A stretch of DNA of 64,000 bases from Myxococcales bacterium (GCA_047601445.1 JASGJH010000001.1:4064001-4128000), one strand, 5' to 3'; counted from the first letter of the stretch, positions 6,772-60,807 are shown. The notes: generated by a model not told the origin, from the letters alone. Program-made: numbers and translations.

Positions 6772-6787
6772 ACCGCGGAGCGTCCTC

Positions 6788-8041
6788 GTGCATTCATCCG
6801 TCGCACTTCGTTCGAAGCTAAGGCTGTCACTGCTCGCGTGGTGGCTGCTCACCAGCGCGGGCTGCCCCGAGAGCTCGGGCTCCCCCGAGTACGAGTGCAG
6901 CGGCGCACAGGAGCTTTCGTTGTCCTGGACCAGCGCAGGATCCAGCTACTGCAACACCGGCTCACTCCTGCCGAACGCGATCCAGGTCGACAGCGACGGC
7001 GGTCTCTCCGCGACCGGCTGCAGCTTTCCCGAAGGCAGCCGTCTGAGCGAGGCCTGCCAGCTCGTCATCCCCGCGATCGGTGGGGGCGCCCAGTGTTCGA
7101 GCAGCAGCAGCTACGGCTACGGATCCGTCAAGTTCTCCCTCTACGCAGAGGGGCTGGGCCCGCAGCTCTCCGGGAACGAACCGATCGCCGACAACCAGGC
7201 GACCGTGCACATCGCGACGGGGGATGGCTGCTCGGCGCCCTATCGGGTGAGCGTCTCGCGTCAGATCCGAAGTCCCCAAACGTCCTGTGAGTTCGTTTGC
7301 GTGAACTACGGGGACTGCGTCGACAACGACGTCGTGTGCGACGGAAACCCCGACTGCGCAGATGGTTCGGACGAGAGCGACTGCCCGGACAGCTGTGGGG
7401 ACGCCAGCCTGGGATACCAGTGCAGCGATGACACCTGCGCTACGCGCTGCGACGGTTCCTACGAGTGCGCCGACGGTAGCGACGAAGATGGCTGTGAGAG
7501 CAATCAGGTCTGCGAGTTCAGCTGCGGCAACGGTGAGTGCGTTTTCCTCTCGCAACAATGTGACGGCTACACCGATTGCGCGACTGGCGCCGACGAGCGC
7601 AACTGCAACTCATCCTGCTCCACCCACCTGATCTGTGACGGCAGATGCGTGCCTCCGAGCTGGATGTGCGACGGCGTGTACCAGTGCAGCGACCGCGCCG
7701 ACGAGCGCACCTGCAACGGCTGCAGCTTGAGCGAGATCGACTGTGGTGATGGCACCTGTCTGGACGACCGCTACCTGTGCAACGGCATCCGGGAGTGCGG
7801 CACGGGCGCCGACGAACAGGACTGCGCGTGTTCGGCCGGCCGCTTCGAGTGCTCGGGCAAGCCCTGCCAACCAGCGGCCAAGCGCTGCGATGGCATCAGC
7901 GACTGCGCGGGCGAGGACGAGGTCGACTGCCGCTGCCCCACCAACACCTTCGACTGCGTCGACGCCTGCGTGCCACGGAGCTTCCGTTGCAACGGCTTCG
8001 TGGACTGCAACAACGGAGCGGACGAGAGCAATTGCCCGTAA
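6788..8041 (+). CDS. Lipoprotein with seven LDL-receptor class A repeats
   Basis: LLTSAGC lipobox-like motif. Seven units ending C(D/N)GxxxCxxxxDExxC, e.g. CDGNPDCADGSDESDC and CNGFVDCNNGADESNC. Start may be GTG 6788 or 6734. Confidence 0.85.
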   Translation: MHSSVALRSKLRLSLLAWWLLTSAGCPESSGSPEYECSGAQELSLSWTSAGSSYCNTGSLLPNAIQVDSDGGLSATGCSFPEGSRLSEACQLVIPAIGGGAQCSSSSSYGYGSVKFSLYAEGLGPQLSGNEPIADNQATVHIATGDGCSAPYRVSVSRQIRSPQTSCEFVCVNYGDCVDNDVVCDGNPDCADGSDESDCPDSCGDASLGYQCSDDTCATRCDGSYECADGSDEDGCESNQVCEFSCGNGECVFLSQQCDGYTDCATGADERNCNSSCSTHLICDGRCVPPSWMCDGVYQCSDRADERTCNGCSLSEIDCGDGTCLDDRYLCNGIRECGTGADEQDCACSAGRFECSGKPCQPAAKRCDGISDCAGEDEVDCRCPTNTFDCVDACVPRSFRCNGFVDCNNGADESNCP

Positions 8042-10296: not shown

Positions 10297-11082
10297 ATGG
10301 CTACGACTCAAGAAGAGAAGGGTGAGATGTTCCGCAAGCTGCACGAGGGCCCCCCCTTCGTGATCGCCAATGCGTGGGACGGCGGCTCGGCGCGCGTGCT
10401 GGCCGCGGTCGGCTTCCAGGCCCTCGCCACGTCGAGCGGGGCATCGGCCGCCACACTCGGAAAGCGCGACGGCGAGCTCACGCGCGACGAAGCACTCGCC
10501 CACGTTGCGCTCATCGCGCGTTCGACCGATCTCCCGGTGGCCGGGGATCTGGAGAATGGCTTCGGAGTGGCTCCAAGCGACGTCATGGAGACCATCCGCC
10601 TCGCCAGCGACGCTGGCCTGGTCGGCGGATCCATCGAAGACGCCACCGGCAATCCGGAACATCCCATCCATGAATTCGATCTCGCCGTGGAGCGCATCGA
10701 GGCCGCCGTGCAGACCGTGCGCACGCTTTCGGTGCCGTTCGTGCTCACGGCCCGCTGCGAGAACTTCCTGCGCGGTCGCTTGGACCTGGCGGACACCATC
10801 AAGCGGCTGCAAGCCTACTCCCGAGCCGGCGCCGACGTGCTGTTCGCACCCGGGCTGCCAGATCTGGATGCGGTGCGCGCGGTGTGTTCTGCCGTGGACA
10901 AGCCCGTCAACTTCATGGTCGCCATTCGCGGCAAGTCGTTCTCGGTGCGCGAGCTGGCAGACGCAGGCGTGCAGCGCATCAGCCTGGCAGGGTCGCTCTA
11001 CCGTGCGGCGCTGGCGAGTGTGCGCGAAGCCGCCCTGGAGGTCATGCGGGACGGAACCTTCGGCTATCTCGAGCGCAGCTGA
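10297..11082 (+). CDS. Isocitrate lyase/phosphoenolpyruvate mutase family protein
   Basis: FRKLH...NAWDGGSAR, ATSSGA, DLENGFG, GGSIED, ARCENFL, AGADVLFAPG. RBS AGGAGG. Confidence 0.9.
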   Translation: MATTQEEKGEMFRKLHEGPPFVIANAWDGGSARVLAAVGFQALATSSGASAATLGKRDGELTRDEALAHVALIARSTDLPVAGDLENGFGVAPSDVMETIRLASDAGLVGGSIEDATGNPEHPIHEFDLAVERIEAAVQTVRTLSVPFVLTARCENFLRGRLDLADTIKRLQAYSRAGADVLFAPGLPDLDAVRAVCSAVDKPVNFMVAIRGKSFSVRELADAGVQRISLAGSLYRAALASVREAALEVMRDGTFGYLERS

Positions 11083-34351: not shown

Positions 34352-34867
34352 GGCTACGAGAGGGGCGCCAGTTCCGAGACGCTCTCGCCCCGAGACTTCC
34401 TGCTTCGCCTCCGTAGCGCGTCGGCGCCGCTCCATGCACAGACACCGTGGGAGCTAGTGGAGGGAGTCGCACCACTGTCCCCCGTACCCGAATCCGAGCC
34501 GTCGCCGATGCTGATGCACACTGCTTGGTCGCGCATGCCTGCATCGTCCTGCTCGTCGGCGCAGCCACAAAACACCTTGGCCGCATACTCGCGATCGAGC
34601 TCTCGAGTGTCGACGTAAATGTCGGCCGGATCCTCGGCCAAGTAGTGGCACAGTGGCGTCGTAGTGTCCCTCGTCTCGGCCCAAGCGCACGTGCCGCTCC
34701 GCGAACTCGGCGCAGAGCTCGCAACGGTTACTTCCCTGAAGGTCCTTGAGCTTCGCTAGATCGTACTCGGTCATGAGCCCGCACCAATCGGCCGCGTGCG
34801 CCCGATGGTAGGCTCGGGCGATCCAGGTCGAACGATCGCGTTCAAGCGACCCTGCTCCGCCCTCCTC

Positions 34868-34904
34868 AGACACGCGAGAGTCCGTGCTTCGACCACCGCG
34901 TGTG
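34868..34904 (+). repeat. Left copy of 37-bp direct repeat bounding the biosynthetic island
   Basis: agacacgcgagagtccgtgcttcgaccaccgcgtgtg. 34/37 identical to 44782-44818, last 22 bp identical. Confidence 0.85.
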
Positions 34905-35156
34905 TCGCCAACAACCACCAAGGTTGATCTCGGCCGCGACAGAGGCTCGCGGAGCGCTGCGCTTCAGCGCATCGAGCACGCGCAAAGGAAACACCGACAT
35001 CTTGCACTCACCCCTCGCTTGCGATTCGCGCTGCACTCAGAGTTCGAACGCGCACAAGCGGGTTAACCTCCGCACTCGCAGAGAAGATGCGTGATAGGAG
35101 ATGCTTGTACGACGGAGCTCTCCCCCGAGTGTCCGTCTGCAGAGAGGAGGTCTCTC

Positions 35157-35180
35157 ATGAAGTACGACCACGTTGGTTGA
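35157..35180 (+). CDS. Candidate biarylitide-type precursor heptapeptide MKYDHVG
   Basis: ATG AAG TAC GAC CAC GTT GGT TGA with RBS GAGGAGG 6 nt upstream. MxYxH motif, about 330 bp upstream of a P450. Confidence 0.7.
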   Translation: MKYDHVG

Positions 35181-35226
35181 TCGTAGCCAATCCTCCATTT
35201 CTTGGTTTCAACAAGGAGCAATCAAA

Positions 35227-35403
35227 ATGAAGTACAGCAATCAAAGCGGTGCTGTGACGAGCGAAGAGGATCTCTTGCTTTCGGATGAGGAGCTCGGCAG
35301 CGTGCATGGTGGACTCTCGACTCCCCCCAGGATTCCGATCCCGCCGCACTTTCCGCCGATCATTCGCCCACCGGTGACCTTCAACCCCGGCTTCTTCGCA
35401 TGA
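35227..35403 (+). CDS. Candidate RiPP precursor: 29-aa double-glycine leader + 29-aa Pro-rich core
   Basis: RBS AAGGAG. MKYSNQSGAVTSEEDLLLSDEELGSVHGG | LSTPPRIPIPPHFPPIIRPPVTFNPGFFA. LSDEELxxVxGG is the classic GG-leader motif. Confidence 0.8.
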   Translation: MKYSNQSGAVTSEEDLLLSDEELGSVHGGLSTPPRIPIPPHFPPIIRPPVTFNPGFFA

Positions 35404-35409
35404 GTCGGT

Positions 35410-35450
35410 GCAGGGGCGAGTTTCGGCTCGCGAGCGAAATTCGTCCCTGC
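35410..35450 (+). terminator. Stem-loop between the precursor genes and the P450 (mRNA-stabilising or attenuating element)
   Basis: gcaggggcgagtttcg pairs with cgaaattcgtccctgc: 16-bp stem, 14 WC + 2 GU. No U-tract follows. Confidence 0.6.
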
Positions 35451-35507
35451 GCTGCTCCCAACGCGGTCGTCGCGAATATGCCTACGAGAAGAGAGGAGAT
35501 TGAGCCG

Positions 35508-36716
35508 ATGCCCCCCGATCCTGTCTACAACCCGTTGGACGCAGACACCCTGGAGAACCCGTTTCCGATCTATGACTATCTGCGATCCAACGCGCCGGTT
35601 TATTGGCACGAGCAGATGCAGTCATGGGTACTCACCCGATACGCGGACTGCCGGAACGTACTCCTGGACCACAAGCTCTTCGCACGCGACGAACGGCGTG
35701 TGGGTGAGTCGATCCCAGACGATCGCCTGAGCGTGCAACAGCTGGATCCCCCGGAAGTCATCCCTTTACGCCGCTTGTTCTTTCAGGCGTTCAAGGCGGT
35801 CGACCTCGAGCAGATTGCAAGGCGCGCACGCGGCCAGATCAGGGGGCTGCTCGATGCCCATGGCAAGAGGCCGATCTTCGATCTCATGGCAGACGTCGCT
35901 TCACCCGTGGCGGAGTCGCTGACTTGCGAATTCTTCGGTTCACCCACCCCACCGGCGCCGGGAAAGTTCATGCAGATTGCCCATGGCATCGCTCTCGGAA
36001 TGGATGCGGGGCTCGAACCCTGTCAGAGGGGCGCCGGGCGGGCCGTCAGCGTCGAGCTCGACCGCATGGTGCGCGACTGGTCGGAGGACCCCATTCCGGG
36101 AAGTTTCATGGCTGAGGTCAAAGACAAGATCCTCCCACGGAAATACCCGGACACGTTGATCTACCGCACCGTCGACGCCATGGTGAACGCATCGTACTCC
36201 ACGATTTACGCGTCCATTGGAAACGCAGCGCTCACCCTGTTTCAGCATCCAGAGATCCGCGCCGCCTTCACTCCGCACAACCTGGTCAGCGGATGCGACG
36301 AGATCCTGCGCTTCGACAGCCCCGCACATGCAACGAGCCGTGTCGCCACCGAGCGCACCACCATCGGCGGCACGGTGATCGAGCGTGGACAGGTGGTCAT
36401 CACGTTGTTCGCCGCTGCGAATCGAGACCCCGACGGTTTTGAACGCCCCAACGATCTCGTTCTCGACCGCCGTCACAATCATCACCTGGGCTTCGGCTGG
36501 GGTTCGCACCAGTGCCTTGGCATCGGCCTGGCGAACGTCGCCCTGCACGAGTTCGTGTCTGCCGCCCTGGCGCTGCCCGCGTTGCGCTCCCTGGGCAAGC
36601 CGAAGCGCTTTCGAACGGCCACTCTGCGCTGGCTGCAAAACCTGCCCGTAACCGCCTCGCCACAGTCGTCACCGGAAATGGAGGAGCAACGTCATGGCAC
36701 AACTGAACACGCATGA
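35508..36716 (+). CDS. Cytochrome P450, resembling peptide-crosslinking (biarylitide BytO-type) P450s
   Basis: Heme motif HLGFGWGSHQCLG, ExxR in DEILRFDSP, RBS GAGGAG before ATG 35508. RRVGESIP...LSVQQLDPP and GMDAGL segments recalled from biarylitide P450s. P450 call is firm, subfamily less so. Confidence 0.9.
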   Translation: MPPDPVYNPLDADTLENPFPIYDYLRSNAPVYWHEQMQSWVLTRYADCRNVLLDHKLFARDERRVGESIPDDRLSVQQLDPPEVIPLRRLFFQAFKAVDLEQIARRARGQIRGLLDAHGKRPIFDLMADVASPVAESLTCEFFGSPTPPAPGKFMQIAHGIALGMDAGLEPCQRGAGRAVSVELDRMVRDWSEDPIPGSFMAEVKDKILPRKYPDTLIYRTVDAMVNASYSTIYASIGNAALTLFQHPEIRAAFTPHNLVSGCDEILRFDSPAHATSRVATERTTIGGTVIERGQVVITLFAAANRDPDGFERPNDLVLDRRHNHHLGFGWGSHQCLGIGLANVALHEFVSAALALPALRSLGKPKRFRTATLRWLQNLPVTASPQSSPEMEEQRHGTTEHA

Positions 36717-37830
36717 TGAATGGTCGCGAATCAGGGAAGTCATCGTCGGCAGCGCTGCCAACTACACTTCTCATGACCGAGAGCTCTCGTTCGACCTGTT
36801 CTTCCACGAAAACCTCTTCCGCTCGGACTGGGCCTACCCGCGCCTCAAGAGCGCGTGTCCCGTGCGCGATCGGGCCTGGGAGATCAAGCAGCGGTACGTC
36901 GAAGAGCTCAATGAAGACGTGGAAGGCCTCGTCGAGGTCCTGCGCTCTCTCGGCATCACCGTGCACAGGCCGATGCCGCTGCCGCCCAACACCCCCTCAA
37001 TCAAGGGCTTCGGCTGGGAAGCGATGCCCGTTCCTGCGCTCAACGTCCGCGACAACACGCTGATCCTCGGCAACGAGATCATCGAGACCCCGCCGGCCAT
37101 CCGCTCACGCTACCTCGAAACGCGCCTGCTTGCTCCCGCCTTCAAGCACTACCACGACGCAGGCGCTCGCTGGACGACGATGCCGCGTCCCCTCCTCACC
37201 GACCGCTCGTTCGATCTCTCCTACGCGCGCGACACCGAGACCAGCTTGGGGGGACCGACCGAGCCAATCGAGGATCCGCAAGCGTCGCCGTATGACGTGG
37301 GCTTCGAGATGATGTTCGACGGGGCTCAGTGCCTACGCCTTGGCCGCGACCTGGTGATGAACATCGCGAACGCCAACCACGCGCTCGCAGTTGACTGGCT
37401 CGAGCGTCATCTGGAGGGCCGCTACCGCATCCACCGTGCCTTCCGCATGAGTGACAACCACATCGACTCGATGATCTTGGCCTTGCGCCCCGGCGTCTTC
37501 CTTGCGCGTCACGCAGGCATCCGTGAGCACCTTCCGGAGTGCTTCAAGCGCTGGGAGTTCATCGTTCCTCCGGTGCCGGACGTCTTCCCCACCTACGAGG
37601 ACGCAGACCTCGTATTGACCAGCCCATACATCGACCTCAACGTACTCTCCATCAGCCCTACGACATTGCTGGCCAACGCGGCCTGCGTCGATCTGATCAG
37701 AACCCTCGAGCACCGGGGCTTCGAGGTGATCCCCGTTCGGCACCGTCACCGGCGCCTCTTCGGAGGTGGCTTTCATTGCTTCACCTTGGACACCGTCCGC
37801 GATGGCGGACTCGAGGACTACAGCGCCTAG
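36694..37830 (+). CDS. Amidinotransferase (glycine/inosamine-phosphate amidinotransferase family)
   Basis: HDEWSRIREVIVG, NVRD, MFDGAQ, HIDS, catalytic GGGFHCFTLDTVRDG. RBS GGAGGAG. Confidence 0.92.
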   Translation: MAQLNTHDEWSRIREVIVGSAANYTSHDRELSFDLFFHENLFRSDWAYPRLKSACPVRDRAWEIKQRYVEELNEDVEGLVEVLRSLGITVHRPMPLPPNTPSIKGFGWEAMPVPALNVRDNTLILGNEIIETPPAIRSRYLETRLLAPAFKHYHDAGARWTTMPRPLLTDRSFDLSYARDTETSLGGPTEPIEDPQASPYDVGFEMMFDGAQCLRLGRDLVMNIANANHALAVDWLERHLEGRYRIHRAFRMSDNHIDSMILALRPGVFLARHAGIREHLPECFKRWEFIVPPVPDVFPTYEDADLVLTSPYIDLNVLSISPTTLLANAACVDLIRTLEHRGFEVIPVRHRHRRLFGGGFHCFTLDTVRDGGLEDYSA

Positions 37831-37851: not shown

Positions 37852-39162
37852 GTGCGCATCCTGATTGGAAATCACATCGACGACTCACTGCTCTGGCAGA
37901 AGGATCAAAGGGCATTTAGTCAGCGCATCTTGTGGTTTGCGCAGGACGGCGACATCGTGATCCTCTCGTGCGAGCCGGACCCCTCTTTTCTCGAGTACGT
38001 CACGTCGCTTGCGGGGGTCGGACGCGACACCCTCGAGTTTCTCGTCGTGCCCCCGGGCGGCCACGGAACACGGCTATTCGATCCCAATTCACTGCTCGAT
38101 CCCGACTTCGTGGCCGAGGTGAAACGGCGCATCGGCGACGTGTCTGATGTCTTTGCGCTGTGGCCCTCCGCCCAGGTCGCCGAGTTTGCCGAACTGCTCG
38201 GGATCCGAGAGAAGCTACCGGGGGCCAGCTTTTTCGCTCAACAAGGCGACGAGCTCGCGAACAACAAAGGAAACTTCCGTGCCTTTGCCGCGGCCCTCGG
38301 CGTACCCGTCGCCGAGGGGGCAGTTTGCCGAACCAAGGAGCACGCAGAGCGAGTCATCGCGCGGCTCCTGCGGACCGGGCCAGTCATGGTCAAACAGGTT
38401 CACAACGGGGCCGGCAACGGCAACGAAGTTCTCGTCTGCGACGACGAGTTGGCCACTGACCATGCCGGCAACAATCGTCGACAGCGAATCGAACCTGGAT
38501 TTTTCGAGGTTCGCGACTACCTCGAAGCGCGCTGGAATTGGGCATCCGTCGGCGGGCGATTCGCCGTGGTGGTCGAGCGCTTCGTGCCAGGGGCTCGCAC
38601 CATATACGCCGAATTCGAGGCCAGAGACGATGGACTGGCGCACACCGCAACCGGATCACTGGGATATGAGCACGGCCGGCTCGTCGAAGAGGTTACGCCG
38701 CTGCGAGGCGTCACCGATGCGGTGCTCGCGCGACTCGTACACCTTGGCGGCCGCCTCGCCGAGACCTACCGGGCGTTTGGCTACCGCGGGTTCATGAGCG
38801 CTGACGCCGTCGTTGACCAATCCGGCAACCTGTTCTTCACCGAAATGAACGCACGTGTGGGCGCTTCTCTCCACCTCTACGAAGGCATCGGAAAGCGGGT
38901 CGTCGATCAGTTTCGTGTTCCTGAGCGGTCACTGATACAGCTCGTGACGCCCAAGCATTGGAAGGTACCAGGCTTCGACGCATTTTCGCGCGTCACTCGC
39001 GAACTCGGCGTCGCCTTCGACCCACTGACTCGGAAAGGAGTGATGGCGGCGATGCCCTTCGCTGGCGAGCCCTGCGCGGGGGGCCTCCTGTTTTGTATAG
39101 CCTACGAGACGGAGCGAGAGCACCACGCCATCGTGGCCCGGCTGACAGAGCGGTTCGGCTGA
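37852..39162 (+). CDS. PGM1-related ATP-grasp peptide ligase (preATP-grasp domain)
   Basis: MRILIGN...QRILWFAQDGDIVIL...PDPSFLEYV, NNKGNFRAFAA, GYRGFMSADAV, FTEMNARVG. RBS GGGAGG. Confidence 0.85.
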   Translation: MRILIGNHIDDSLLWQKDQRAFSQRILWFAQDGDIVILSCEPDPSFLEYVTSLAGVGRDTLEFLVVPPGGHGTRLFDPNSLLDPDFVAEVKRRIGDVSDVFALWPSAQVAEFAELLGIREKLPGASFFAQQGDELANNKGNFRAFAAALGVPVAEGAVCRTKEHAERVIARLLRTGPVMVKQVHNGAGNGNEVLVCDDELATDHAGNNRRQRIEPGFFEVRDYLEARWNWASVGGRFAVVVERFVPGARTIYAEFEARDDGLAHTATGSLGYEHGRLVEEVTPLRGVTDAVLARLVHLGGRLAETYRAFGYRGFMSADAVVDQSGNLFFTEMNARVGASLHLYEGIGKRVVDQFRVPERSLIQLVTPKHWKVPGFDAFSRVTRELGVAFDPLTRKGVMAAMPFAGEPCAGGLLFCIAYETEREHHAIVARLTERFG

Positions 39163-39186: not shown

Positions 39187-40455
39187 TCATGGCGCACTGG
39201 CTTCCGCGGCTAGCGCTGGCGCCGCTTCGTTGAGACGGGACACCCGCCGCTGGAGGCTCGCCATCAAGTCCGTGCATTGCTCTTGATCGACCGCCTCGAC
39301 TACTGCAACGCCAATGCAGGTGGTCGAGCTCTCACGCATGTCGGCCATCGTCTGGCCCACCGGCACGGTCAGCGTGGCCTCCACGACGCCAGGAAGAGCG
39401 CGGATGTCCTCGCATCCAACACGATTGATCCGACCGGCCGACGCGGGGAGAGTCGTTACTCCGAAGACCTTATTCGGCTCACACGGTCGCCGCGGGATCG
39501 CGTCGCCCGTGATCGAGAGCGCTCCGGCCGCCCATAGGTCGACCCCGACCGCGCGCTCAATCATGCTCGAGATGTTGTTGCCAGCTACCCGCGCGGCCAG
39601 CTCGCCCGCAACGAAATCGAACGTACCCGGTCGAGCGAAGACCTCGAAGTGAAACACCCCGGTGACGTGCCCCAAGGCGTCGAGGGCCCGTTGGGTGAAC
39701 GTGCCCGCGGCTTGGTAGAGCTGCGGATGGCGGGACGGCGGGAAGGAAATGCTGGCGTGCTGTTTGCCGTTCTTGATCTCGAGGATAGGGGTCACGTACC
39801 TGGACGCATGGAACGTGTGCAGCTGGCCTTGCAGTACGACCCCGTCGAAGTGCCACTCATCGCCGGCGACAAACTCCTCGACCATCAGCCGGCGCAAATT
39901 CGGGTAATTCGCCACCGTGGTAGATACCGCGCTGACGAGCGCTTCGTCGTCCGATACGAACTGCACGTGACGCGTACCGTACCCGGCGACCGGCTTCAGC
40001 ACGAAGGGAGGACGCAGACCGGCGGTTCGTACCGACGCGAGCACAATGTCGGGGCTGGCACATGCATCGGGCACCACGACGAATCTGGCGGTGGGTATCC
40101 CAGCCTCGTGCCATGCGGCTTTTTGCACCGGCTTGTCGCGACAACGCAGAGCTACCTCGGGGTCGAGCCCACGGATGCCCAGGAGTCGTGCCAGGATGGC
40201 GCTCGAAACGACCCCCGTCTCGCAATTCGAGACCACGGCCCCGATCGGACGTGCGAGCGCACCCACCTGATGCAGCGCCGACCATAGGGACTCGACAGAG
40301 GTAAGCGTGTCGATGGCGCAAAAGTGACGGGCCCGTGGGCGCAGCGCCGAAACCCAGGGCTCTTGCCAGGCTTCGTACAGAAGGGTCACCTCGTGACCGG
40401 CCTCGACGAGGGCATCGAACGCTTCCCGTTTTGCTCTCACCAGCACTACGTGCAT
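39187..40455 (-). CDS. ATP-grasp enzyme (L-amino acid ligase/carboxylate-amine ligase-like); C-terminal part of ORF 39187..42522
   Basis: RCRDKPVQK, PFVLKPVAGYGT, MVEEFVAGDEWHFDG, GVFHFEVF, GELAARVAG. Own in-frame ATG at 40455 preceded by AAGGAG. Confidence 0.85.
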   Translation of the reverse strand: MHVVLVRAKREAFDALVEAGHEVTLLYEAWQEPWVSALRPRARHFCAIDTLTSVESLWSALHQVGALARPIGAVVSNCETGVVSSAILARLLGIRGLDPEVALRCRDKPVQKAAWHEAGIPTARFVVVPDACASPDIVLASVRTAGLRPPFVLKPVAGYGTRHVQFVSDDEALVSAVSTTVANYPNLRRLMVEEFVAGDEWHFDGVVLQGQLHTFHASRYVTPILEIKNGKQHASISFPPSRHPQLYQAAGTFTQRALDALGHVTGVFHFEVFARPGTFDFVAGELAARVAGNNISSMIERAVGVDLWAAGALSITGDAIPRRPCEPNKVFGVTTLPASAGRINRVGCEDIRALPGVVEATLTVPVGQTMADMRESSTTCIGVAVVEAVDQEQCTDLMASLQRRVSRLNEAAPALAAEASAP

Positions 40456-42522
40456 CGCTCTGCTCTCCTTCCGGTAGGCAGCTCTACTCTTCGATGTTTG
40501 GCGATTTGGAGCGGGCTCCGAGCGTGTCCCATGGGCAACAGAGGGAGCCCAATCACAACCTCTCCCGCATTTGAGCGAAGGCGGATTCGAAGCGTTCACG
40601 AGGTCGGATCCAATCGGCACTCGGGCGGTGAAGCCCTTCTCCAGGCGCTCGCATCTTACGTGAGTTGCTCTCGTCGTAGACGAGCCGGGTCGTCCAACGC
40701 TGACCGCGAGCTCCCCGCCCCGTTCCAGTGACAATCTTTGGCCGAAGGCCGACACCCCGGAGAACTCGTGAGGGACAGCCACATCGATCGCGTAGCCTTG
40801 GCCCGGCTCAAATAGATACCGGATGCGGAGACCCGATGAGCGGTCGTCCCAGGAACGGAGCACGCACAGCTCGGCCGAGTCCTCAAAGTGTCGGCGATTG
40901 GAGGCGATCAAGCCCTCGATTCGGTCGGAGATCAGCGCGCGATCCCCCGACTCGGCGTACTGGCGGAGCAGCGGAACGTGCCGTCGCAACAGCTGCGGGA
41001 GATACAACTCGGGTCGCTTCTCGTTGCGGATGACAGCCAGTCGAAAGGTCAGCTCCTGAAGCTCAGCGCGCTCGATTTCAGAGTTCGTCGCCCGCGCATC
41101 GAGCTCCTCGCGATACCGAGCGTACGCATCGATCAAGTCCCGAATCCGCTCGTCCTGAGCGCCTCCGAGCAGAACCTGGTTCAGCGCTTCTCGTCCTCTG
41201 GGCCACAGGCGAGCCAGCAAGCAGAGGATGCCACCGAGATCGTAGGTCCCCGTCCAGCGCGGCATGCGCCTCTCGATGAGAATCGGGGATGTGCCATCGA
41301 AAGCAACCTGATGAAGGTGCAAACCAAGCTGACCGTAGAACTTGCTCGGAGTGCACCGGGCCAGCCAGAATTGGGGAAACCCGCACAAGCGCAGGAGGCC
41401 TCGGATGACAGCCTGGGCATACTTTCGCTTCACCCGTTGCTCGAGCTCCTCGCGCTCGGGGATGGCAGCAGCGAGTCGAGGCGACAGCCCGAGGGCGGTG
41501 CAGTGCGCAAGATTTCTCAGCATGTCGCTGAGATTGGCAGGCGAGTCGGAACGGAACGGCGAGCCGCGCACCGCAATGGTGGAACCATGGTTTGGTTGAG
41601 TCGATTGCGTCTCGAAGTCGAGCAGTCGCCCACTGGTCTCGACATTCGACGACGACAGCGCTCCGTGGGGTGCCCGCCGCACGAGTAGCGCAGCTTGCTG
41701 TTCGGCAAGGCGATCGGCGAACTGCAGGAACCCCTCGCGTAGCGCCTCCTCGCAGGAGGCGGGCTCCGGAGTGTTCCGCGGCAAGGCGGCCATGATGCAT
41801 TGCTGCAGGGACCGGAGACTATCGGCGTCCTGACGAGAATAGGGGTTGAGCATGAAATGCGCCGGGCGCACCGGGAAAGGGCGTAGGAGCAGCGCGCGGC
41901 GCTTGCTGCGGCCATCCGGCAAGAGCATTGATGTCCCACAGTCCAGAATGGCGAGCACGCGGTTGGCGCCATGCGGCGCTTCGGCCTGGTTGAGCTCACC
42001 CCAGACTGCCTCGCGCATGGCATCTCCCAAGAACAGACCTCCATGCCGATGATCGTGCGGACTTCCGTGGTCGGCCAGCGACGTCGTCCCGATGCCTTTG
42101 ATCTGCAGCGATCCGAGCGCGGCTGCGCGGCCGCTCCCACGGTTGGCCCCGATGCCCTCACCACCGTATCGATCGGCATAAAAAGCCCGGGCTTCACCGA
42201 TGAACATGCCAGGCTCATCCTGGTCGTCCGGGATCCGATACGCGAAAGCTTCGAGGAATATGTGCTCGAGCTCAGGTGTGATGCCGTCGCTAGGCAACCC
42301 GAGCTCGAGGTCGCGCAACAGAGACCAGTTCACCCACAGCAGCCTCGCGTCGCGCATTCTTCGGGCGAGCACCGGCACGAACGCCTCCGGTGGTGGTGCC
42401 ACCGGCGCGTTGTCCATGAGCCGAGCGAGCCCGGCTCGGAGCCTGTCGTAGGGGGAAACGGACACGCCAATAGAGGCATGAAGCGATGTTGCGTCGCGAG
42501 CAATCCTCATCACCCCGCACAA
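40456..42522 (-). CDS. SelO/YdiU-like (MchC-like) nucleotidyltransferase-fold domain, in frame with the downstream ATP-grasp
   Basis: LLWVN, ADRYGGEGIGANRGSGRA, LQIKGIGTT, REAVWGE, HGALSSSN...LLDFET parallel the SelO motifs (GDGRA, QLKGAG, RE, HGxxNxDN, D). Start may be 42417. Confidence 0.7.
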
Positions 42523-42554: not shown

Positions 42555-43514
42555 TCACCCGGTTGCAAAGCGATCGAGCGCGCTCATCAGGGCCAATCGC
42601 TTGCTGTTGCTGCGCAGGTGCCCGGCGTCGTCCACCGCGATGAGCTCCGCCCCCGCCCATGCTCGCGCAAGGGCCCAGGCGGTGTCGATTGGACAACTCA
42701 TGTCTCGTCTTCCGTGGATCACCACCCCGGGGATTCCATCGAGCCGCGCCGCGTTCTGGATCAGAGCGCCTTCTTCCAACCAACCGCCATGCCGAAGGTA
42801 GTGGGTACAAATGCGCACGAAGGCCAGCATGTCCTCGACCGGCATCTCAGAGCTCGAGGCCGCGCCGGCACCAGTCTCGAGTGAGAGCACCGCGTCCTCC
42901 CATTTGCACCACCCCCTGGCGGCCGCCACCCTGACGGCCTCCTCAGGGTGATCCATGCGCTGGGCGTAAGCCTCGATCAGGTCCGCCCCACGCGCGGTGT
43001 TGGGTAAGGGACCTCGGAATTGTTCCCATGCTTCCGGGAAGAAACGAGCAGCCCCTGCGTACAGCCACTCGGCCTCACGACGAGTCCACGTAGTCACATT
43101 GCTGAGCACGAGCTCAGAAACCGACTCGCGATGGCGATGCGCATAGGCCAGCGCGAGCGCGACACCCCACGAGGCGCCGGAGACCAACCAACGCTCGATG
43201 CCGAGGTGACGCCGGAGGGATTCCATGTCCGCGATGAGGTGATCCGTCGTGTTGCATGACATGTCCGTGGCGAGGTCACTGGCGGAGGGGATCGACCTTC
43301 CGCAGCCCCGTTGGTCGAACAGAACCACCCTATACTGCTCCGGGTCGAACGCGCGCGCCATGTTGGGAGCGCAGCCTTGCCCGGGACCGCCGTGCAGCAC
43401 CACAGCGGGCTTTCCGTGGGGTACGCCGAAGACCTGCCACGCGATGCGGTTTTCGGAGCTGACCTCCAGGTGTCCTTCTTGGATGGGTCCTCGCAGCGGA
43501 TACAAGTCGACCAT
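42555..43514 (-). CDS. pip: Proline iminopeptidase (peptidase S33)
   Basis: VVLHGGPG, FDQRGCGRS, nucleophile GASWG, HGRRD, DAGH. Confidence 0.88.
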   Translation of the reverse strand: MVDLYPLRGPIQEGHLEVSSENRIAWQVFGVPHGKPAVVLHGGPGQGCAPNMARAFDPEQYRVVLFDQRGCGRSIPSASDLATDMSCNTTDHLIADMESLRRHLGIERWLVSGASWGVALALAYAHRHRESVSELVLSNVTTWTRREAEWLYAGAARFFPEAWEQFRGPLPNTARGADLIEAYAQRMDHPEEAVRVAAARGWCKWEDAVLSLETGAGAASSSEMPVEDMLAFVRICTHYLRHGGWLEEGALIQNAARLDGIPGVVIHGRRDMSCPIDTAWALARAWAGAELIAVDDAGHLRSNSKRLALMSALDRFATG

Positions 43515-43571: not shown

Positions 43572-44615
43572 CTACCCTGAAGACGGGCCCGTGTCTCGTG
43601 GAGGAACGGCCTGCGCGACGAGCACGTGAACGCCGGAGCGGGTGGTCAACACTCGCTCGATCACGAAGCCGGCTGCAACGAGCAAGGCGCGGTTCTCGTC
43701 GAGCGTGCGATCCCGAGCCCCGAACAACACGAGCATCGTCAGGTCTCGAATCGACGATGGAAGTCCGCCCTCGCGCTCCAGGTCGAGCGAGCGCTCGATG
43801 AGCAAGAGGCGCCCACCTCCCGTGATGGCGCGCCGCACGTTGCCAAGGATTTGCAAGGCCTCTTCGTCGCGCCAGTTGTGAATCACTGCCTTGAGCAAAT
43901 AGAGTTCTGCTCCAGCAGGAACCTCCCGCAACAGGTCGCCGGCGAGCGCTGTGCCTCGCCCGCTCACTCCTCGCTCCTGAAGAGTATGCCTGACTTGTTC
44001 GACCACGGCCGCCTGCTCGACCGCGATTCCTTGCAACTCCGGGTGTCCCTTCAGTACCTCGGCGAGCAGGGTTCCGTCACCCGCTCCCAGGTCGACGACC
44101 AGGCCTCGCTCGGGGAACTCGTACAGGGCTTCGAACTCGTTCCAGAAATGGGAGCTGTTGAAGCGCATCGTGCGCGCGAAGGAACGCGCCAGCTCGGGGG
44201 TTTCGCTCATGTAGGTCCACAGCCCCCGCCCATGCACGTGCTCGAAAGCCGAGCGACCGGTACGCAACGCGTAGCTCAAGCAGGCCCAGGCGTCGTAGTA
44301 TTCGGTTCCAGACATTCGAGCGTGACCATGAAGCAGACCCGCCTCGTGGTGCAGCAGCTTGCAGAGCGCGGTACCGTGAACCAGACCGTCGACGCGCTGT
44401 ACGAGCTCGAGTCCCTCAAGCGCATCCAAGTACCTGCGCAGTTCGTTCGTGCCGATACCGGTCAGCTCCGCGAGAGTGCGTTCGGTCTGCGGCCCCTCGG
44501 CCAGAAAGTCCGGGATGCGGAGCGTCACCGCCGAGGCCACGAGCTGCGTAACGATGTACCCACCCAACAGCTTCCCGAGCCGCTCGCCTTCCGGCCTGGC
44601 TTCGTTCTGGAGCAT
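43572..44615 (-). CDS. SAM-dependent methyltransferase (O-MT family 2 with dimerisation domain)
   Basis: VVDLGAGDG, GDLLREVP, YLLKAVIHNWRDE, DLTMLVLFGARDRT. RBS GAGGAGG before ATG 44615. Confidence 0.92.
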   Translation of the reverse strand: MLQNEARPEGERLGKLLGGYIVTQLVASAVTLRIPDFLAEGPQTERTLAELTGIGTNELRRYLDALEGLELVQRVDGLVHGTALCKLLHHEAGLLHGHARMSGTEYYDAWACLSYALRTGRSAFEHVHGRGLWTYMSETPELARSFARTMRFNSSHFWNEFEALYEFPERGLVVDLGAGDGTLLAEVLKGHPELQGIAVEQAAVVEQVRHTLQERGVSGRGTALAGDLLREVPAGAELYLLKAVIHNWRDEEALQILGNVRRAITGGGRLLLIERSLDLEREGGLPSSIRDLTMLVLFGARDRTLDENRALLVAAGFVIERVLTTRSGVHVLVAQAVPPRDTGPSSG

Positions 44616-44781
44616 TCGGAACCTCCTCAACTGCTTGCCTCAAGTCGTACTCGAGTGCGAGGCCCATGGCGACGAGGTTAACCCCGCGTGGCGCAAGATG
44701 ACGGCGGTCCAGCCCGCCCAACCGCCGATGGTCCCTATCCGCCATAGCGATGGCGTTCAAGCGCCCCGCCAACGCCCCATG

Positions 44782-59154: not shown

Positions 59155-60807
59155 ATGCGTGAACGGCACATGGCGTTCGTGACAGGACTGTTCTGGGGAG
59201 CGCTTGCTGCCTGCTCACCGCAGGGGTCGCCGACGAGTGGGTCTGGCAGCGAGCTCCCGAGGGACCCGGATTCCTTGGCCCCGGTCCCCGACGTCCCCAC
59301 CGTCGCTCCCCCAGCGACACCTTCCTCGGATGCGATGTGTACGGACAACGCGATCGGTGGCATCGCCTATCGGATCTGCAACGCTCCGCGCTCCTGGAGC
59401 CACGCGCGGGAGCGATGCGAAGCACAGGGCATGGTGTTGGCCCAACCTTCCAGCCCTGAATCGATGACGGCACTGGGCGCCGCTTTGAAACGGGCGTTCT
59501 GGCTGGGTGGTTCCGATCGCGCAAGCGAAGGCGAGTGGCGCTGGACCGACGGTACCGTCATCAGCCGCGCCCGCCGCTTCGGCAAGCCCTTCGTCAACCT
59601 TCCGGAATCGGCCTACTACTTCCAGAGCTTCGGGCAGCTAGAGGTGGACTTCGGGCGCAACTGCTTGCGCCTGGCGGAAGGCCGCGTGGACGCGCATGCC
59701 TGCCAGGAAGCCTTGCCCTTCGTGTGCCAGGAGCGTCCGACCGAATACGCCCCGCAGGAGAACGCGCGTGCGACTTGCACGAGCGACGACCTGGGCGGTC
59801 ATCATTATCTGATCTGTGGCGACGCGCGCACGTGGCAAGAGGCGGAGGCACACTGCAATCGCAACGACATGCACCTGGCGACGCTTCAAAGCGTGGATGA
59901 AGCCAAGTTCATCGCCGAGCGCATCCGCGCCGACAGCTTCATCGGCCTCGTCAACTCGACGCATCCGGACTTCAAGCCACAGTTCCCAGTGTTTCCGGAC
60001 AGCCTCGAGCGCGGCGTGTGGAGAAACCTCGACGACAATCGCATCGTCTGGTGTGGCAATGCGCAGGGCATGAGCACCCCGCTCAGCTACACGCGCTGGG
60101 CACAGAACGAGCCGAGCCGCGATGATCTGGCCTGCAGCGCCATGGCATCGGGCACGGGCCAGTGGCGCGCGGTCGCCTGCGGTCGTCCCCTTGCCTATGT
60201 GTGCGAGCAGATCGACGACGGCAAGCCCGACGCTTTTGCCACGCGGCCCGAGCTGATGATCGATTCCTCTCCCGAGCTGCGGCCGGGCACCCTCGTCACT
60301 TCACCCATGCTCTCGCTCGATCGCGCGTTCCATGTCCGCGCGTGTGTGGACCTCTACGAAGCAGCGAGCGTCCCGCAGACCCGTATCAAGGACGTCGAAG
60401 AGCGCTGGTACACGCAACGAGTCAACGGATACCTCGTTGCAGCAAGCGCAGGAACCTTCAGGCTGCGACGCGACCTCCGCACACGGGCGATACGTGCCAT
60501 TTGGGTGGCGTCCGAGAACAATTTCCGCATCCCCGAGCTCGCCAAGCCGAAGCTCTCCGAACGCCAAGCATTCATCAAACTGGGCGAGATCACCGGCGTC
60601 GCGCCGGAGCACATCTCCCTCCAGGCCGGCAGCGGGCTCAGGATTAATCGCAAGCCGCGCATCGTCGAGGAGGAGTACGAGCTCGTCTACGGCTTCCAAA
60701 TCATCGCCGACGCGCCCAAGCTGTCTCCTCTCACCACGCGCCACTACATTGCAGTGAACGCCAATACCGGCGAAATGTCGGGCTACGCCAACGACGTCTA
60801 CTACTGA
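59155..60807 (+). CDS. Lipoprotein with two C-type lectin-like domains and a PepSY-like C-terminus
   Basis: ALAAC, SWSHARERC...FWLGGSD...EGEWRW, TWQEAEAHC...WAQNEP...WRAVAC...YVCE, ends IAVNANTGE. Confidence 0.8.
   Translation: MRERHMAFVTGLFWGALAACSPQGSPTSGSGSELPRDPDSLAPVPDVPTVAPPATPSSDAMCTDNAIGGIAYRICNAPRSWSHARERCEAQGMVLAQPSSPESMTALGAALKRAFWLGGSDRASEGEWRWTDGTVISRARRFGKPFVNLPESAYYFQSFGQLEVDFGRNCLRLAEGRVDAHACQEALPFVCQERPTEYAPQENARATCTSDDLGGHHYLICGDARTWQEAEAHCNRNDMHLATLQSVDEAKFIAERIRADSFIGLVNSTHPDFKPQFPVFPDSLERGVWRNLDDNRIVWCGNAQGMSTPLSYTRWAQNEPSRDDLACSAMASGTGQWRAVACGRPLAYVCEQIDDGKPDAFATRPELMIDSSPELRPGTLVTSPMLSLDRAFHVRACVDLYEAASVPQTRIKDVEERWYTQRVNGYLVAASAGTFRLRRDLRTRAIRAIWVASENNFRIPELAKPKLSERQAFIKLGEITGVAPEHISLQAGSGLRINRKPRIVEEEYELVYGFQIIADAPKLSPLTTRHYIAVNANTGEMSGYANDVYY

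What the first reader, a model, noticed from the sequence alone, without database searches (positions are those of the whole stretch)
35144..35180. Hidden 7-codon ORF MKYDHVG with the biarylitide MxYxH motif
Seen: GAGGAGG, 6 nt, then ATG AAG TAC GAC CAC GTT GGT TGA upstream of the P450; too short for the ORF track. Known: biarylitide precursors are MxYxH pentapeptides (MRYYH; myxarylin MNYLH) whose Tyr and His are joined by the adjacent P450, and the myxarylin cluster also uses a methyltransferase. Inference: this is the P450 substrate. The acidic middle residue and the VG extension are unusual, and VG could be a handle for the ligases or the SelO-like enzyme.
Basis: partly seen in the sequence, partly recalled or inferred. 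Interest (0 to 1): 0.9.

Follow-up and report, generated by a model that had tools for sequence, protein, structure and literature searches.

The report
Seven-codon biarylitide precursor gene, myxobacterial
A real seven-codon gene (MKYDHVG) sits in front of a peptide-cross-linking cytochrome P450 in a myxobacterium; it belongs to an already catalogued class of tiny peptide genes whose final product is still unknown.

Summary
GAGGAGG (35144-35150), a 6-nt spacer, then ATG AAG TAC GAC CAC GTT GGT TGA (35157-35180) is in the window. It is the only Shine-Dalgarno-preceded M-x-Y-x-H ORF of 5-9 codons in the whole 9.5-Mb genome.

The P450 (35508-36716) is closest to the solved biarylitide-type P450s NsRufO, RufO and P450Blt (E 1e-79 to 1e-67; the next unrelated P450 scores 1e-31). 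Of 13 loci with a P450 relative and usable flanks, 12 carry a YDH micro-ORF within about 300 nt of the P450. Eight Streptomyces loci have MRYDHCL, and all their differences are synonymous.

The features it called unusual are not unusual. YDH is one of the three commonest motifs, and a "YxHx2/x3" class that includes MRYDHCL and MKYDHIF is listed in Khan 2025, Table S1. The pairing of Asp-4 with Pgm1 ligases is described in Padva 2026.

The neighbours are an amidinotransferase, a PGM1 homologue, an L-amino-acid-ligase fusion, a prolyl-aminopeptidase-family hydrolase and an O-methyltransferase. An orphan 58-aa peptide gene with a double-glycine-type leader lies between the micro-ORF and the P450. 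It is a new member of a known kind, and its product is unknown.

The parts
35144..35150 (+). Shine-Dalgarno site GAGGAGG, 6 nt before the ATG of the micro-ORF
   Evidence: All 14 micro-ORF copies in the 12 positive loci have a GGAG/GAGG-containing stretch within the 18 nt upstream.
35157..35180 (+). Seven-codon precursor gene MKYDHVG (bytA-like, 'YxHx2' type), stop codon included
   Evidence: unique in the genome. Conservation is shown, and the literature class.
35213..35218 (+). Shine-Dalgarno site AAGGAG, 8 nt before the ATG of the 58-aa ORF
35227..35403 (+). 58-aa orphan peptide gene. The leader ends LSDEELGSVHGG (double-glycine type). The 29-aa core is proline-rich. It may be a second precursor.
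   Evidence: coding score +0.218 per codon in frame, the other five frames negative; no relative; the only convincing such leader in the genome; weak bacteriocin-leader match, E 0.092.
35402..35457 (+). Strong RNA stem-loop between the two peptide genes and the P450 gene
   Evidence: -45.3 kcal/mol, z -4.13, 0 of 200 shuffles fold as well. A comparable hairpin lies right after MRYDHCL in Streptomyces locus L006 (the sequences of all eight loci are).
35508..36716 (+). Cytochrome P450 of the biarylitide-synthase type (YDH sub-clade). The start is ATG 35508, behind AGGAGA.
   Evidence: The heme-ligand motif FGWGSHQCLG and the EILR motif are present.
36694..37830 (+). Amidinotransferase (StrB1/AGAT family). 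It overlaps the end of the P450 gene by 23 nt.
   Evidence: 1BWD, E 9e-46. One search shows GGGFHC, HIDS and FDGA aligned to the corresponding StrB1/AGAT stretches.
37852..39162 (+). PGM1-type ATP-grasp peptide ligase
   Evidence: PGM1, 3WVQ, E 2e-78, residues 1-421 against 1-420. (Pre-ATP-grasp domain).
39187..42522 (-). 1111-aa fusion protein. The N-terminal ~690 aa are of unknown family (SelO-like is a lead only). The C-terminal part is an L-amino-acid-ligase-type ATP-grasp.
   Evidence: (4WD3, E 1e-19). Negative calls: 41, 42, 73, 74, 80.
42555..43514 (-). Alpha/beta hydrolase of the prolyl aminopeptidase family (S33). It is a candidate leader or trimming peptidase.
   Evidence: TIGR01249, 294.4 bits against a cut-off of 259.75..
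43572..44630 (-). SAM-dependent O-methyltransferase (Methyltransf_2)
   Evidence: PF00891, E 1.1e-33.

Best explanation
MKYDHVG is a genuine, ribosomally made biarylitide-type precursor. Its first two residues (Met-Lys) act as the minimal leader. The adjacent P450 oxidatively joins the side chains of Tyr3 and His5 (loss of 2 Da) into a three-residue cyclophane. The cross-linked peptide is then processed by the co-encoded pheganomycin-like enzymes: an amidinotransferase, a PGM1-type ligase, an L-amino-acid-ligase-type ATP-grasp, an S33 peptidase and an O-methyltransferase. Shown here: the ORF exists, it is unique in the genome, it is conserved at the peptide level next to orthologous P450s, and the P450 and its neighbours belong to the stated families. 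Inferred: translation of the ORF, the cross-link and its regiochemistry, leader removal, and every later step.
For: (1) The sequence is as described and the ORF is unique in the genome. (2) Twelve of 13 evaluable loci with a P450 at 43-49% identity have a YDH micro-ORF within about 300 nt, on the same strand: the window (MKYDHVG, upstream), L006-L013 (MRYDHCL, upstream, 8 of 8), L015 and L016 (two MSYDH copies each, downstream) and L017 (MSYDH, downstream). Two distant P450 paralogues (L002, L005) have none, 0 of 2. (3) In the eight Streptomyces copies, all 5 variable sites within the sense codons are third positions and synonymous, the stop codon varies TAG/TGA, and the peptide is identical in 8 of 8. 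(4) In L011, L012, L016 (both copies), L017 and the second copy in L015 there is no in-frame start codon further upstream, so the conserved unit is the micro-ORF itself. (5) The ten best PDB sequences are NsRufO, RufO, P450Blt and one unidentified pair (9JVJ/9JV0), at E 3.5e-79 to 7.6e-57. The next hit is a generic P450 at 1e-31. (6) All nine P450s taken from these loci and aligned share the I-helix signature N-A-S-[YF]-[SG]-T. The P450Blt/RufO type reads H-A-G-[YF]-E-[SV] in the ten rows aligned, and P450Blt itself reads H-A-G-Y-A-S. In the careful tree, the P450s with 7-codon precursors lie on one side of a branch with support 98/94. (7) A -2 Da product from MSYDH with its own P450 MyhB is reported (main text). 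P450Blt also cyclises MSYDH (passage), and P450BytO accepts Asp at position 4 (passage). (8) The amidinotransferase, LAL and PGM1-like genes lie downstream of the P450 in 8 of 8 Streptomyces 7-mer loci. This matches the published link between Asp-4 and Pgm1 in 47 clusters.
Against: No expression, ribosome-profiling or mass-spectrometry data exist for this locus. One close relative (L014, Streptomyces chattanoogensis) has the P450, amidinotransferase, hydrolase and PGM1-like genes but no YDH in any of six frames over 13 kb. The I-helix positions that hold Arg and His in P450Blt and RufO, residues that contact the substrate in RufO (passage), are Asp and Asn here, so the binding mode may differ. 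A second possible precursor lies between the micro-ORF and the P450. An in-frame GTG at 35091 would give a 29-aa form that ends in the same seven residues.
Confidence: 0.85

Rival explanations
1. The 58-aa leader-bearing peptide (35227-35403), not the micro-ORF, is the P450's substrate. On this reading the micro-ORF is a bystander.
For: The 58-aa ORF lies directly upstream of the P450. It has its own Shine-Dalgarno site, a coding-like codon pattern and a double-glycine-type leader. Its core contains His, Phe and other aromatic residues.
Against: It has no relative in 5.8 billion clustered or 1.84 billion representative proteins, whereas the YDH micro-ORF travels with the P450 in 12 of 13 loci. 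No similar leader peptide was seen in the five other loci scanned: L006, L014, L015, L016, L017. The core has no Tyr-x-His or comparable i/i+2 aromatic pair of the kind used by this P450 clade.
Confidence: 0.04
2. The micro-ORF is a regulatory upstream ORF (attenuation or translational coupling) for the downstream genes. Its peptide has no role of its own.
For: It is very short, lies at the 5' end of the operon, and a strong hairpin follows further downstream.
Against: The peptide sequence is what is conserved: all changes in 8 of 8 Streptomyces copies are synonymous. In L015, L016 and L017 the micro-ORFs lie downstream of the P450, twice in tandem copies, which does not fit a leader-ORF role. 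No Rfam family matches the region.
Confidence: 0.03
3. The P450 acts on the heptapeptide but does not cross-link it. It could instead nitrate Tyr3 as RufO does, or hydroxylate the peptide.
For: The best solved relative is the nitrating enzyme NsRufO (E 3.5e-79).
Against: The genome (98.7% complete) has no NO synthase, PF02898, while the control genomes gave hits. The I-helix keeps an alcohol residue (Ser-Thr) where RufO has Glu-Val. The cognate MSYDH/MyhB pair gives -2 Da.
Confidence: 0.05
4. The precursor is a 29-aa peptide that starts at GTG 35091 (MIGDACTTELSPECPSAERRSL-MKYDHVG). The 22 extra residues would serve as a conventional leader.
For: The frame is open from GTG 35091. Longer P450-modified precursors exist in related RiPP classes.
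Against: The strong Shine-Dalgarno site sits 6 nt before ATG 35157, not before the GTG. The upstream in-frame stretches are not conserved between loci, and several loci have no upstream start codon at all.
Confidence: 0.04

Closest known systems
Extended 'YxHx2/x3' biarylitide precursors (MRYDHCL, MKYDHIF, MSYDHIS, MLYDHIA, MTYDHIL, MSYDHVAV) listed in Khan et al. 2025, Org Lett, Table S1 rows 423-435 (PMC12150307; I read main-text part 1 of 3 and supplement part 4, and searched the rest)
   Same: The layout is M-x-Y-D-H plus two residues, with a beta-branched or Cys residue at position 6, next to a P450 of the same clade. My loci L008, L009 and L011 come from the same strains (ISL-43, ISL-94, ISL-66) as three of the table's rows.
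   Different: The exact peptide MKYDHVG is not in that table ('ydhvg' 0 hits) or in any searchable main text. None of the 13 rows is a myxobacterium. None of these peptides has a characterised product.
Hybrid biarylitide/Pgm1-ligase clusters with Asp at position 4 (47 clusters; Padva et al. 2026, JACS Au, PMC13417212; section 8 and passages read, supplement unreadable)
   Same: Asp-4 in the precursor, a PGM1 homologue (E 2e-78 to 3WVQ) and a biarylitide-type P450.
   Different: This cluster also has an amidinotransferase, a second ligase fused to a ~690-aa domain of unknown family, an S33 peptidase, an O-methyltransferase and a 58-aa leader-bearing peptide gene. I could not check whether it is among the 47, because Table S1 of that paper could not be read.
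MyhA/MyhB (MSYDH, Micromonospora hortensis; Khan et al. 2025)
   Same: The YDH core. A -2 Da product is reported for the cognate pair.
   Different: That precursor is a five-residue peptide, and the structure of its cross-link was not determined. The P450s next to MSYDH in my three such loci branch apart from the 7-mer group.
Myxarylin (MNYLH, BytO, BytZ; Pyxidicoccus fallax; PMC8708641 and PMC12951456, passages read)
   Same: A myxobacterial host, a minimal precursor, a Tyr3-His5 cross-link made by a P450, and a methyltransferase in the cluster.
   Different: The motif is YLH rather than YDH, the precursor has no tail, and the cluster has no ligases or amidinotransferase. BytZ is described as an N-methyltransferase, whereas the enzyme here matches the Pfam O-methyltransferase domain family (Methyltransf_2). 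The characterised biarylitide clusters have no dedicated protease, but this one has an S33 hydrolase.
Pheganomycin pathway (PGM1 joins an alpha-guanidino acid to the N-terminus of a ribosomal peptide; described in PMC10591300, passages read)
   Same: A PGM1-type ligase, a source of guanidino groups (amidinotransferase) and one or more ribosomal peptides.
   Different: Pfam found no DpgA-D-type genes among the 62 ORFs scanned in the window. A biarylitide P450 and precursor are present instead. The donor and acceptor of the ligase are unknown.
P450Blt and RufO (solved biarylitide-type P450s; 8U2M, 9EBY, 22YX)
   Same: They have the same fold family, and the alignment runs the full length at E 1e-67 to 3.5e-79. 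Their substrate is a short M-R-Y-L-H peptide.
   Different: The I-helix reads D-A-M-V-N-A-S-Y-S-T here. P450Blt reads R-A-V-L-H-A-G-Y-A-S and RufO reads R-A-F-F-H-A-G-F-E-V.

Membership tests
Biarylitide (BytA/BytO-type minimal RiPP) | Ultra-short precursor ORF (5-8 codons) with aromatic residues at positions 3 and 5, next to the P450 | tested here: met
   MKYDHVG has Tyr3 and His5 and ends 327 nt upstream of the P450 start, with its own Shine-Dalgarno site. It is unique in the genome. The 5-8 aa rule is the one used by CoreFinder in Padva 2026.
Biarylitide (BytA/BytO-type minimal RiPP) | P450 related to the characterised biarylitide synthases | tested here: met
   The ten best PDB sequences are NsRufO, RufO, P450Blt and 9JVJ/9JV0, at E 3.5e-79 to 7.6e-57. 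The next is a generic P450 at 1e-31. BytO itself was not available for a direct comparison.
Biarylitide (BytA/BytO-type minimal RiPP) | Precursor conserved next to orthologous P450s | tested here: met
   Twelve of 13 evaluable loci carry it. L018 and L019 were not evaluable because their contigs end at or inside the P450.
Biarylitide (BytA/BytO-type minimal RiPP) | P450-made biaryl cross-link between residues 3 and 5 (-2 Da) | not testable with these tools
   This needs expression and mass spectrometry. It is reported for MSYDH with MyhB.
Biarylitide (BytA/BytO-type minimal RiPP) | Intact P450 catalytic motifs | tested here: met
   FGWGSHQCLG (Cys ligand) and EILR (ExxR) are present, and Thr occupies the conserved I-helix alcohol position. 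That these motifs define an active P450 is established knowledge, recalled here.
Extended 'YxHx2/x3' precursor class (Khan 2025, Table S1) | M-x-Y-x-H followed by 2-3 more residues | tested here: met
   MKYDHVG, set against rows 423-435.
Asp-4 / Pgm1-ligase hybrid clusters (Padva 2026) | Asp at precursor position 4 together with a Pgm1 ligase homologue in the cluster | tested here: met
   Asp4. The ORF at 37852-39162 matches PGM1 3WVQ at E 2e-78 over its full length.
RufO-type nitrating P450 systems | Co-encoded nitric oxide synthase | tested here: not met
   PF02898 was not found in the genome (98.7% complete), while the control genomes gave hits.
RufO-type nitrating P450 systems | I-helix Glu-Val in place of the conserved alcohol residue | tested here: not met
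   The window has Ser-Thr at these positions.
Pheganomycin-type pathway | PGM1 ligase plus a guanidino-forming enzyme | tested here: met
Pheganomycin-type pathway | Dihydroxyphenylglycine genes (DpgA-D type) | tested here: not met
   No such Pfam family was found among the 62 ORFs scanned in the window.
Pheganomycin-type pathway | Ribosomal acceptor peptide for the ligase | tested here: inconclusive
   There are two candidates, the cross-linked heptapeptide and the 58-aa peptide. No test discriminates between them.
Double-glycine-leader peptides (class II bacteriocin / NHLP-like) | Leader motif L-S-x-x-E-L-x-x-[IV]-x-G-G (consensus recalled, not from a call) | tested here: met
   LSDEELGSVHGG at residues 18-29. 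A relaxed pattern finds only 3 small ORFs in the genome, and only this one is convincing.
Double-glycine-leader peptides (class II bacteriocin / NHLP-like) | Match to a curated family model | tested here: inconclusive
   Pfam gives nothing. NCBIfam NF046113 gives E 0.092, 12.8 bits against a cut-off of 40. The Atlas scores 0.84, which is at noise level.
Double-glycine-leader peptides (class II bacteriocin / NHLP-like) | C39 peptidase or transporter encoded nearby | tested here: not met
   None in the window. Two C39-domain proteins lie 0.77 and 4.2 Mb away.
SelO (PF02696) for the N-terminal 690 aa of the 1111-aa protein | Match to the SelO family model | tested here: not met
   No Pfam, NCBIfam or PDB match. 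The genome's real SelO lies elsewhere. Two leads remain. The nearest Atlas clusters score 0.96 but carry PF02696 in only 11-14% of members. BLASTP against the genome's own SelO gives E 0.35, 22% identity over 214 aa, and aligns the Gly-rich/Lys and H-G...N...D stretches.

The most novel reading that the evidence does not exclude
The locus makes one product from two ribosomal peptides. The P450-cross-linked YDH unit, trimmed and N-amidinated, would take the place of pheganomycin's aromatic alpha-guanidino acid. The PGM1-type ligase would join it to the N-terminus of the proline-rich core released from the 58-aa double-glycine-leader peptide. The product would be a biarylitide-capped proline-rich peptide. 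Three arguments support this: both peptide genes lie upstream of the same strong hairpin, a PGM1 homologue and an amidinotransferase are present, and there is an S33 prolyl-aminopeptidase-family gene. Two points count against it: the 58-aa peptide is an orphan, and no counterpart was seen in related clusters.
Probability: 0.12. Interest if true: 0.8.

Novelty: new member of a known kind. Interest (0 to 1): 0.4.

Why it matters
Gene callers miss genes of 5-8 codons, so each verified case helps calibrate mining for minimal RiPPs. This locus is a clean, single-contig example of the Asp-4 biarylitide plus Pgm1-ligase clusters. Those clusters are reported as widespread, but I found no product for them in the papers I read. 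Against the one catalogue I could read, it would be the first myxobacterial member of the extended 'YxHx2/x3' precursor class. The gene set (P450, amidinotransferase, two ATP-grasp ligases, peptidase, methyltransferase, a possible second precursor) is compact enough for heterologous expression. That experiment could show what the conserved Asp and the C-terminal tail are for. It could also show whether a ribosomal cyclophane is used as a building block by a peptide ligase.

Tried and rejected
- RNA or DNA sequencing runs for 34800-37800: none was listed.
- Complex prediction with the PGM1-like protein and the 58-aa peptide: 'no answer', score 0.00, controls not run. This is not evidence either way.
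- Structure prediction for the N-terminal domain of the 1111-aa protein: not accepted at that time.
- Family and structure-sequence searches for that domain were negative. No relative was found in 400 sampled genomes of the phylum.
- Relatives of the 58-aa peptide: only the peptide itself in three searches.
- Rfam on 34400-35700: no match. Sigma-70 promoter and intrinsic-terminator consensus scans: 0 sites. The hairpin has no T-tract.
- The metagenome scan returned only three loci, at 40-43% identity.
- Padva 2026, Table S1: unreadable.
- Earlier findings of this scan: none near this place. Two hits for the word 'biarylitide' were unrelated to this locus.
- A duplication origin for the two peptide genes was considered, because both start ATGAAGTAC. 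Nothing beyond those 9 nt is shared, so I did not pursue it.
- I considered and rejected ATG 35400 as the P450 start. Homologues align from residue 3-8 of the 35508 form, and the 35400 form would be translated through the hairpin.

Full report
**Observation.** One search shows GAGGAGG at 35144-35150, six bases of spacer, then ATG AAG TAC GAC CAC GTT GGT TGA at 35157-35180. The ORF lies in a stretch of about 235 nt with no convincing gene on either strand.

It is not a chance ORF. It is the only ATG ORF of the form M-x-aromatic-x-aromatic plus 0-4 residues on either strand of the window. In the whole 9,502,601-bp genome, both strands, there are 5 ATG ORFs of 5-9 codons that start M-x-Y-x-H. Only one of them has a Shine-Dalgarno-like site and only one is M-x-Y-D-H, and both are this ORF.

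**The P450.** The gene downstream most likely starts at ATG 35508, with AGGAGA 8 nt upstream. Homologues align from residue 3-8 of that form. It carries the Cys-ligand motif FGWGSHQCLG and an ExxR motif.

- *Solved relatives.* Against all PDB sequences, its ten best hits run from E 3.5e-79 to 7.6e-57. They are the RufO homologue NsRufO (22YX), RufO (9EBY, 8SPC, 8SPP, 9M47), P450Blt (8U2M and variants) and one pair I could not identify (9JVJ/9JV0). The next hit is a generic P450 at 1e-31. The identities of these entries come from passages of PMC13651536.
- *No sign of nitration.* The genome has no NO synthase. The I-helix has Ser-Thr where RufO has Glu-Val. Cross-linking is therefore the expected chemistry, not nitration.

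**Comparative test.** I collected P450 relatives from four sources:
- one genome of the same order (G205, 49% identity; 1 of 300 other genomes sampled in the order, 0 of 9 in the same genus);
- none of 400 genomes sampled from the phylum;
- ten Streptomyces loci (44-49% identity);
- three metagenome loci.

Thirteen loci, counting the window, have usable flanks on both sides of the P450. Twelve of them carry a YDH micro-ORF on the P450's strand within about 300 nt:
- MKYDHVG upstream in the window;
- MRYDHCL upstream in L006-L013 (8 of 8);
- two tandem MSYDH copies downstream in L015 and in G205 (L004/L016);
- one MSYDH downstream in L017.

L018 and L019 end at or inside the P450 and were not evaluable. 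Two distant paralogues (L002, L005) have no micro-ORF.

All 14 micro-ORF copies have a GGAG/GAGG-containing stretch just upstream. Among the eight MRYDHCL copies, all five variable sites in sense codons are synonymous third positions, and the stop codon varies between TAG and TGA. In several loci no in-frame start codon exists further upstream, so the conserved unit is the tiny ORF itself.

The one exception is L014 (Streptomyces chattanoogensis). It has no YDH in any of six frames over 13 kb.

**Sub-family.** All nine P450s taken from these loci and aligned share the I-helix signature N-A-S-[YF]-[SG]-T. The ten P450Blt/RufO-like rows in the same alignment read H-A-G-[YF]-E-[SV]; P450Blt itself reads H-A-G-Y-A-S.

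I built a careful maximum-likelihood tree of 60 P450s. I left out L008, L009, L011 and L013 as near-copies, and P0027 and P0049 as fragments.
- The window's enzyme sits in a 15-row clade of metagenomic proteins (support 100/100).
- The P450s paired with 7-codon precursors lie on one side of a branch (98/94).
- They are apart from the clade that holds the MSYDH-linked enzymes and from the H-A-G type (100/99).

**What is already known.** Khan et al. 2025 (PMC12150307; I read main-text part 1 of 3 and supplement part 4, and searched the rest) list 435 putative precursors.
- YDH is one of the three commonest motifs, at 94 entries.
- A class 'YxHx2/x3' (rows 423-435) holds MRYDHCL from strains ISL-94, ISL-66 and ISL-43, the strains behind my L009, L011 and L008. 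It also holds MKYDHIF, MSYDHIS, MLYDHIA, MTYDHIL, MSYTHIL, MTYNHIV and MSYDHVAV.
- None of those 13 rows is a myxobacterium.
- MSYDH with its own P450 MyhB gave a -2 Da product.

Padva et al. 2026 (PMC13417212; section 8 and passages read) report 47 clusters that combine Asp at position 4 with a Pgm1 ligase homologue. No product is described in the parts I read, and I could not open their Table S1.

MKYDHVG, MKYDH and MRYDH occur in no searchable main text. The finding is therefore a new member of a catalogued kind.

**Neighbourhood.**
- *Plus strand, after the P450.* An amidinotransferase at 36694-37830 matches StrB1 at E 9e-46, with GGGFHC, HIDS and FDGA aligned to the enzyme's conserved stretches. 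A PGM1 homologue at 37852-39162 matches 3WVQ at E 2e-78 over its full length.
- *Minus strand, converging.* An O-methyltransferase lies at 43572-44630. An S33 hydrolase at 42555-43514 scores above the cut-off of the prolyl-aminopeptidase model. A 1111-aa protein at 39187-42522 has an L-amino-acid-ligase-type ATP-grasp as its C-terminal 420 aa.
- *The N-terminal 690 aa of the 1111-aa protein.* These match no family model, and no relative was found in 400 genomes sampled from the phylum. The nearest Atlas clusters score 0.96 but carry PF02696 in just 11-14% of their members. A weak pairwise alignment to the genome's own SelO gives E 0.35.
- *Synteny.* All eight Streptomyces 7-mer loci have amidinotransferase, LAL and PGM1-like genes downstream of the P450. 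In L006 an MFS-like membrane protein gene lies in between.
- *Gene transfer.* The window's amidinotransferase is 70.6% identical to that of L014, while the two P450s are only about 43% identical. This points to a mosaic origin by transfer between phyla.
- *Host.* The genome is a myxobacterium. The named relatives of a window-encoded Hsp70 paralogue are Minicystis, Sandaracinus, Polyangium and Myxococcus, at 61-66% identity.

**A second peptide gene.** It encodes a leader ending LSDEELGSVHGG, followed by a 29-residue proline-rich core.
- *Coding signal.* The codon score is positive in this frame and negative in the other five.
- *Leader.* The leader fits the double-glycine consensus, which I recall from memory. 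A relaxed pattern finds only three small ORFs in the genome, and only this one is convincing.
- *No relatives.* It has none in 5.8 billion clustered proteins, in 1.84 billion representatives read by HMMER, or in its own genome. No counterpart was seen in five related loci.
- *Hairpin.* A very stable hairpin at 35402-35457 (-45.3 kcal/mol, z -4.1) separates the two peptide genes from the P450. In Streptomyces a comparable hairpin follows the micro-ORF directly, and a conserved 49-52-aa ORF that looks like a signal peptide lies 70 nt upstream of it.

Placing precursor genes ahead of a hairpin is a common layout in RiPP operons. That is recalled knowledge, not a tool result. The role of the 58-aa peptide is open.

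**Mechanism.**
- *Shown:* a unique micro-ORF conserved at the peptide level, a biarylitide-type P450, and a pheganomycin-like enzyme set.
- *Inferred:* the ribosome makes MKYDHVG, and Met-Lys serves as the two-residue leader, as shown for myxarylin (passage). The P450 then couples Tyr3 to His5 (-2 Da). A peptidase, possibly the S33 hydrolase, trims the peptide. Finally the amidinotransferase, the two ATP-grasp ligases and the methyltransferase elaborate the cyclophane at its amine and carboxylate groups (Asp4, C-terminus).

I put 0.85 on the first part, that the micro-ORF is a precursor and the P450's substrate. None of the later steps can be ranked with the present data.

The boldest reading not excluded is that the PGM1-type ligase joins the modified biarylitide to the core of the 58-aa peptide. 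I put that at about 0.12.

**Verdict.** This is a new member of a known kind and of moderate interest, mainly as a compact and tractable example of the uncharacterised YDH/Pgm1 hybrid clusters.

Noticed in passing
window 35227-35403 (+): An orphan 58-aa ORF with a double-glycine-type leader (LSDEELGSVHGG) and a proline-rich 29-aa core lies between the micro-ORF and the P450. It has a coding-like codon pattern and no relative in any search.
   Followed up: yes
window 35402-35457 (+): A very stable stem-loop (-45.3 kcal/mol, z -4.1) without a T-tract separates the two peptide genes from the P450. A comparable hairpin follows MRYDHCL in the Streptomyces loci.
   Followed up: partly
window 40453-42522 (-): A ~690-aa N-terminal domain of no recognised family is fused to an L-amino-acid-ligase ATP-grasp. 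Its motifs align weakly with the genome's own SelO. No relative was found in 400 sampled genomes of the phylum.
   Followed up: partly
L014 7284-8285 (+) and 9582-10844 (-): This Streptomyces chattanoogensis locus has the P450, amidinotransferase, hydrolase and PGM1-like genes but no YDH micro-ORF. A 333-aa ORF starting MSYDS begins about where MSYDH sits in its sister locus L015. Its amidinotransferase is 70.6% identical to the myxobacterial one, although the P450s are only about 43% identical.
   Followed up: partly
L006-L013, about 5606-5820 (+): A conserved 49-52-aa ORF that looks like a signal peptide (MNGHFWTRRL...AFAS...) lies 70 nt upstream of MRYDHCL in 8 of 8 Streptomyces loci. Its C-terminal part is more variable than its N-terminal part.
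   Followed up: partly
L015 7259 and 7338; L016 12859 and 12762 (-): Tandem duplicate MSYDH micro-ORFs, each with its own Shine-Dalgarno site, lie downstream of the P450 in a Streptomyces locus and in a genome of the window's own order.
   Followed up: partly
window 35157-35165 and 35227-35235: Both small ORFs start with the same nine bases, ATGAAGTAC (Met-Lys-Tyr). Nothing further is shared.
   Followed up: no
window 6734-8041, 59155-60807, 10297-11082: Three unrelated genes stood out: a protein with four LDL-receptor class A repeats, a C-type lectin domain protein, and a PEP-mutase-family gene that may point to phosphonate metabolism.
   Followed up: no
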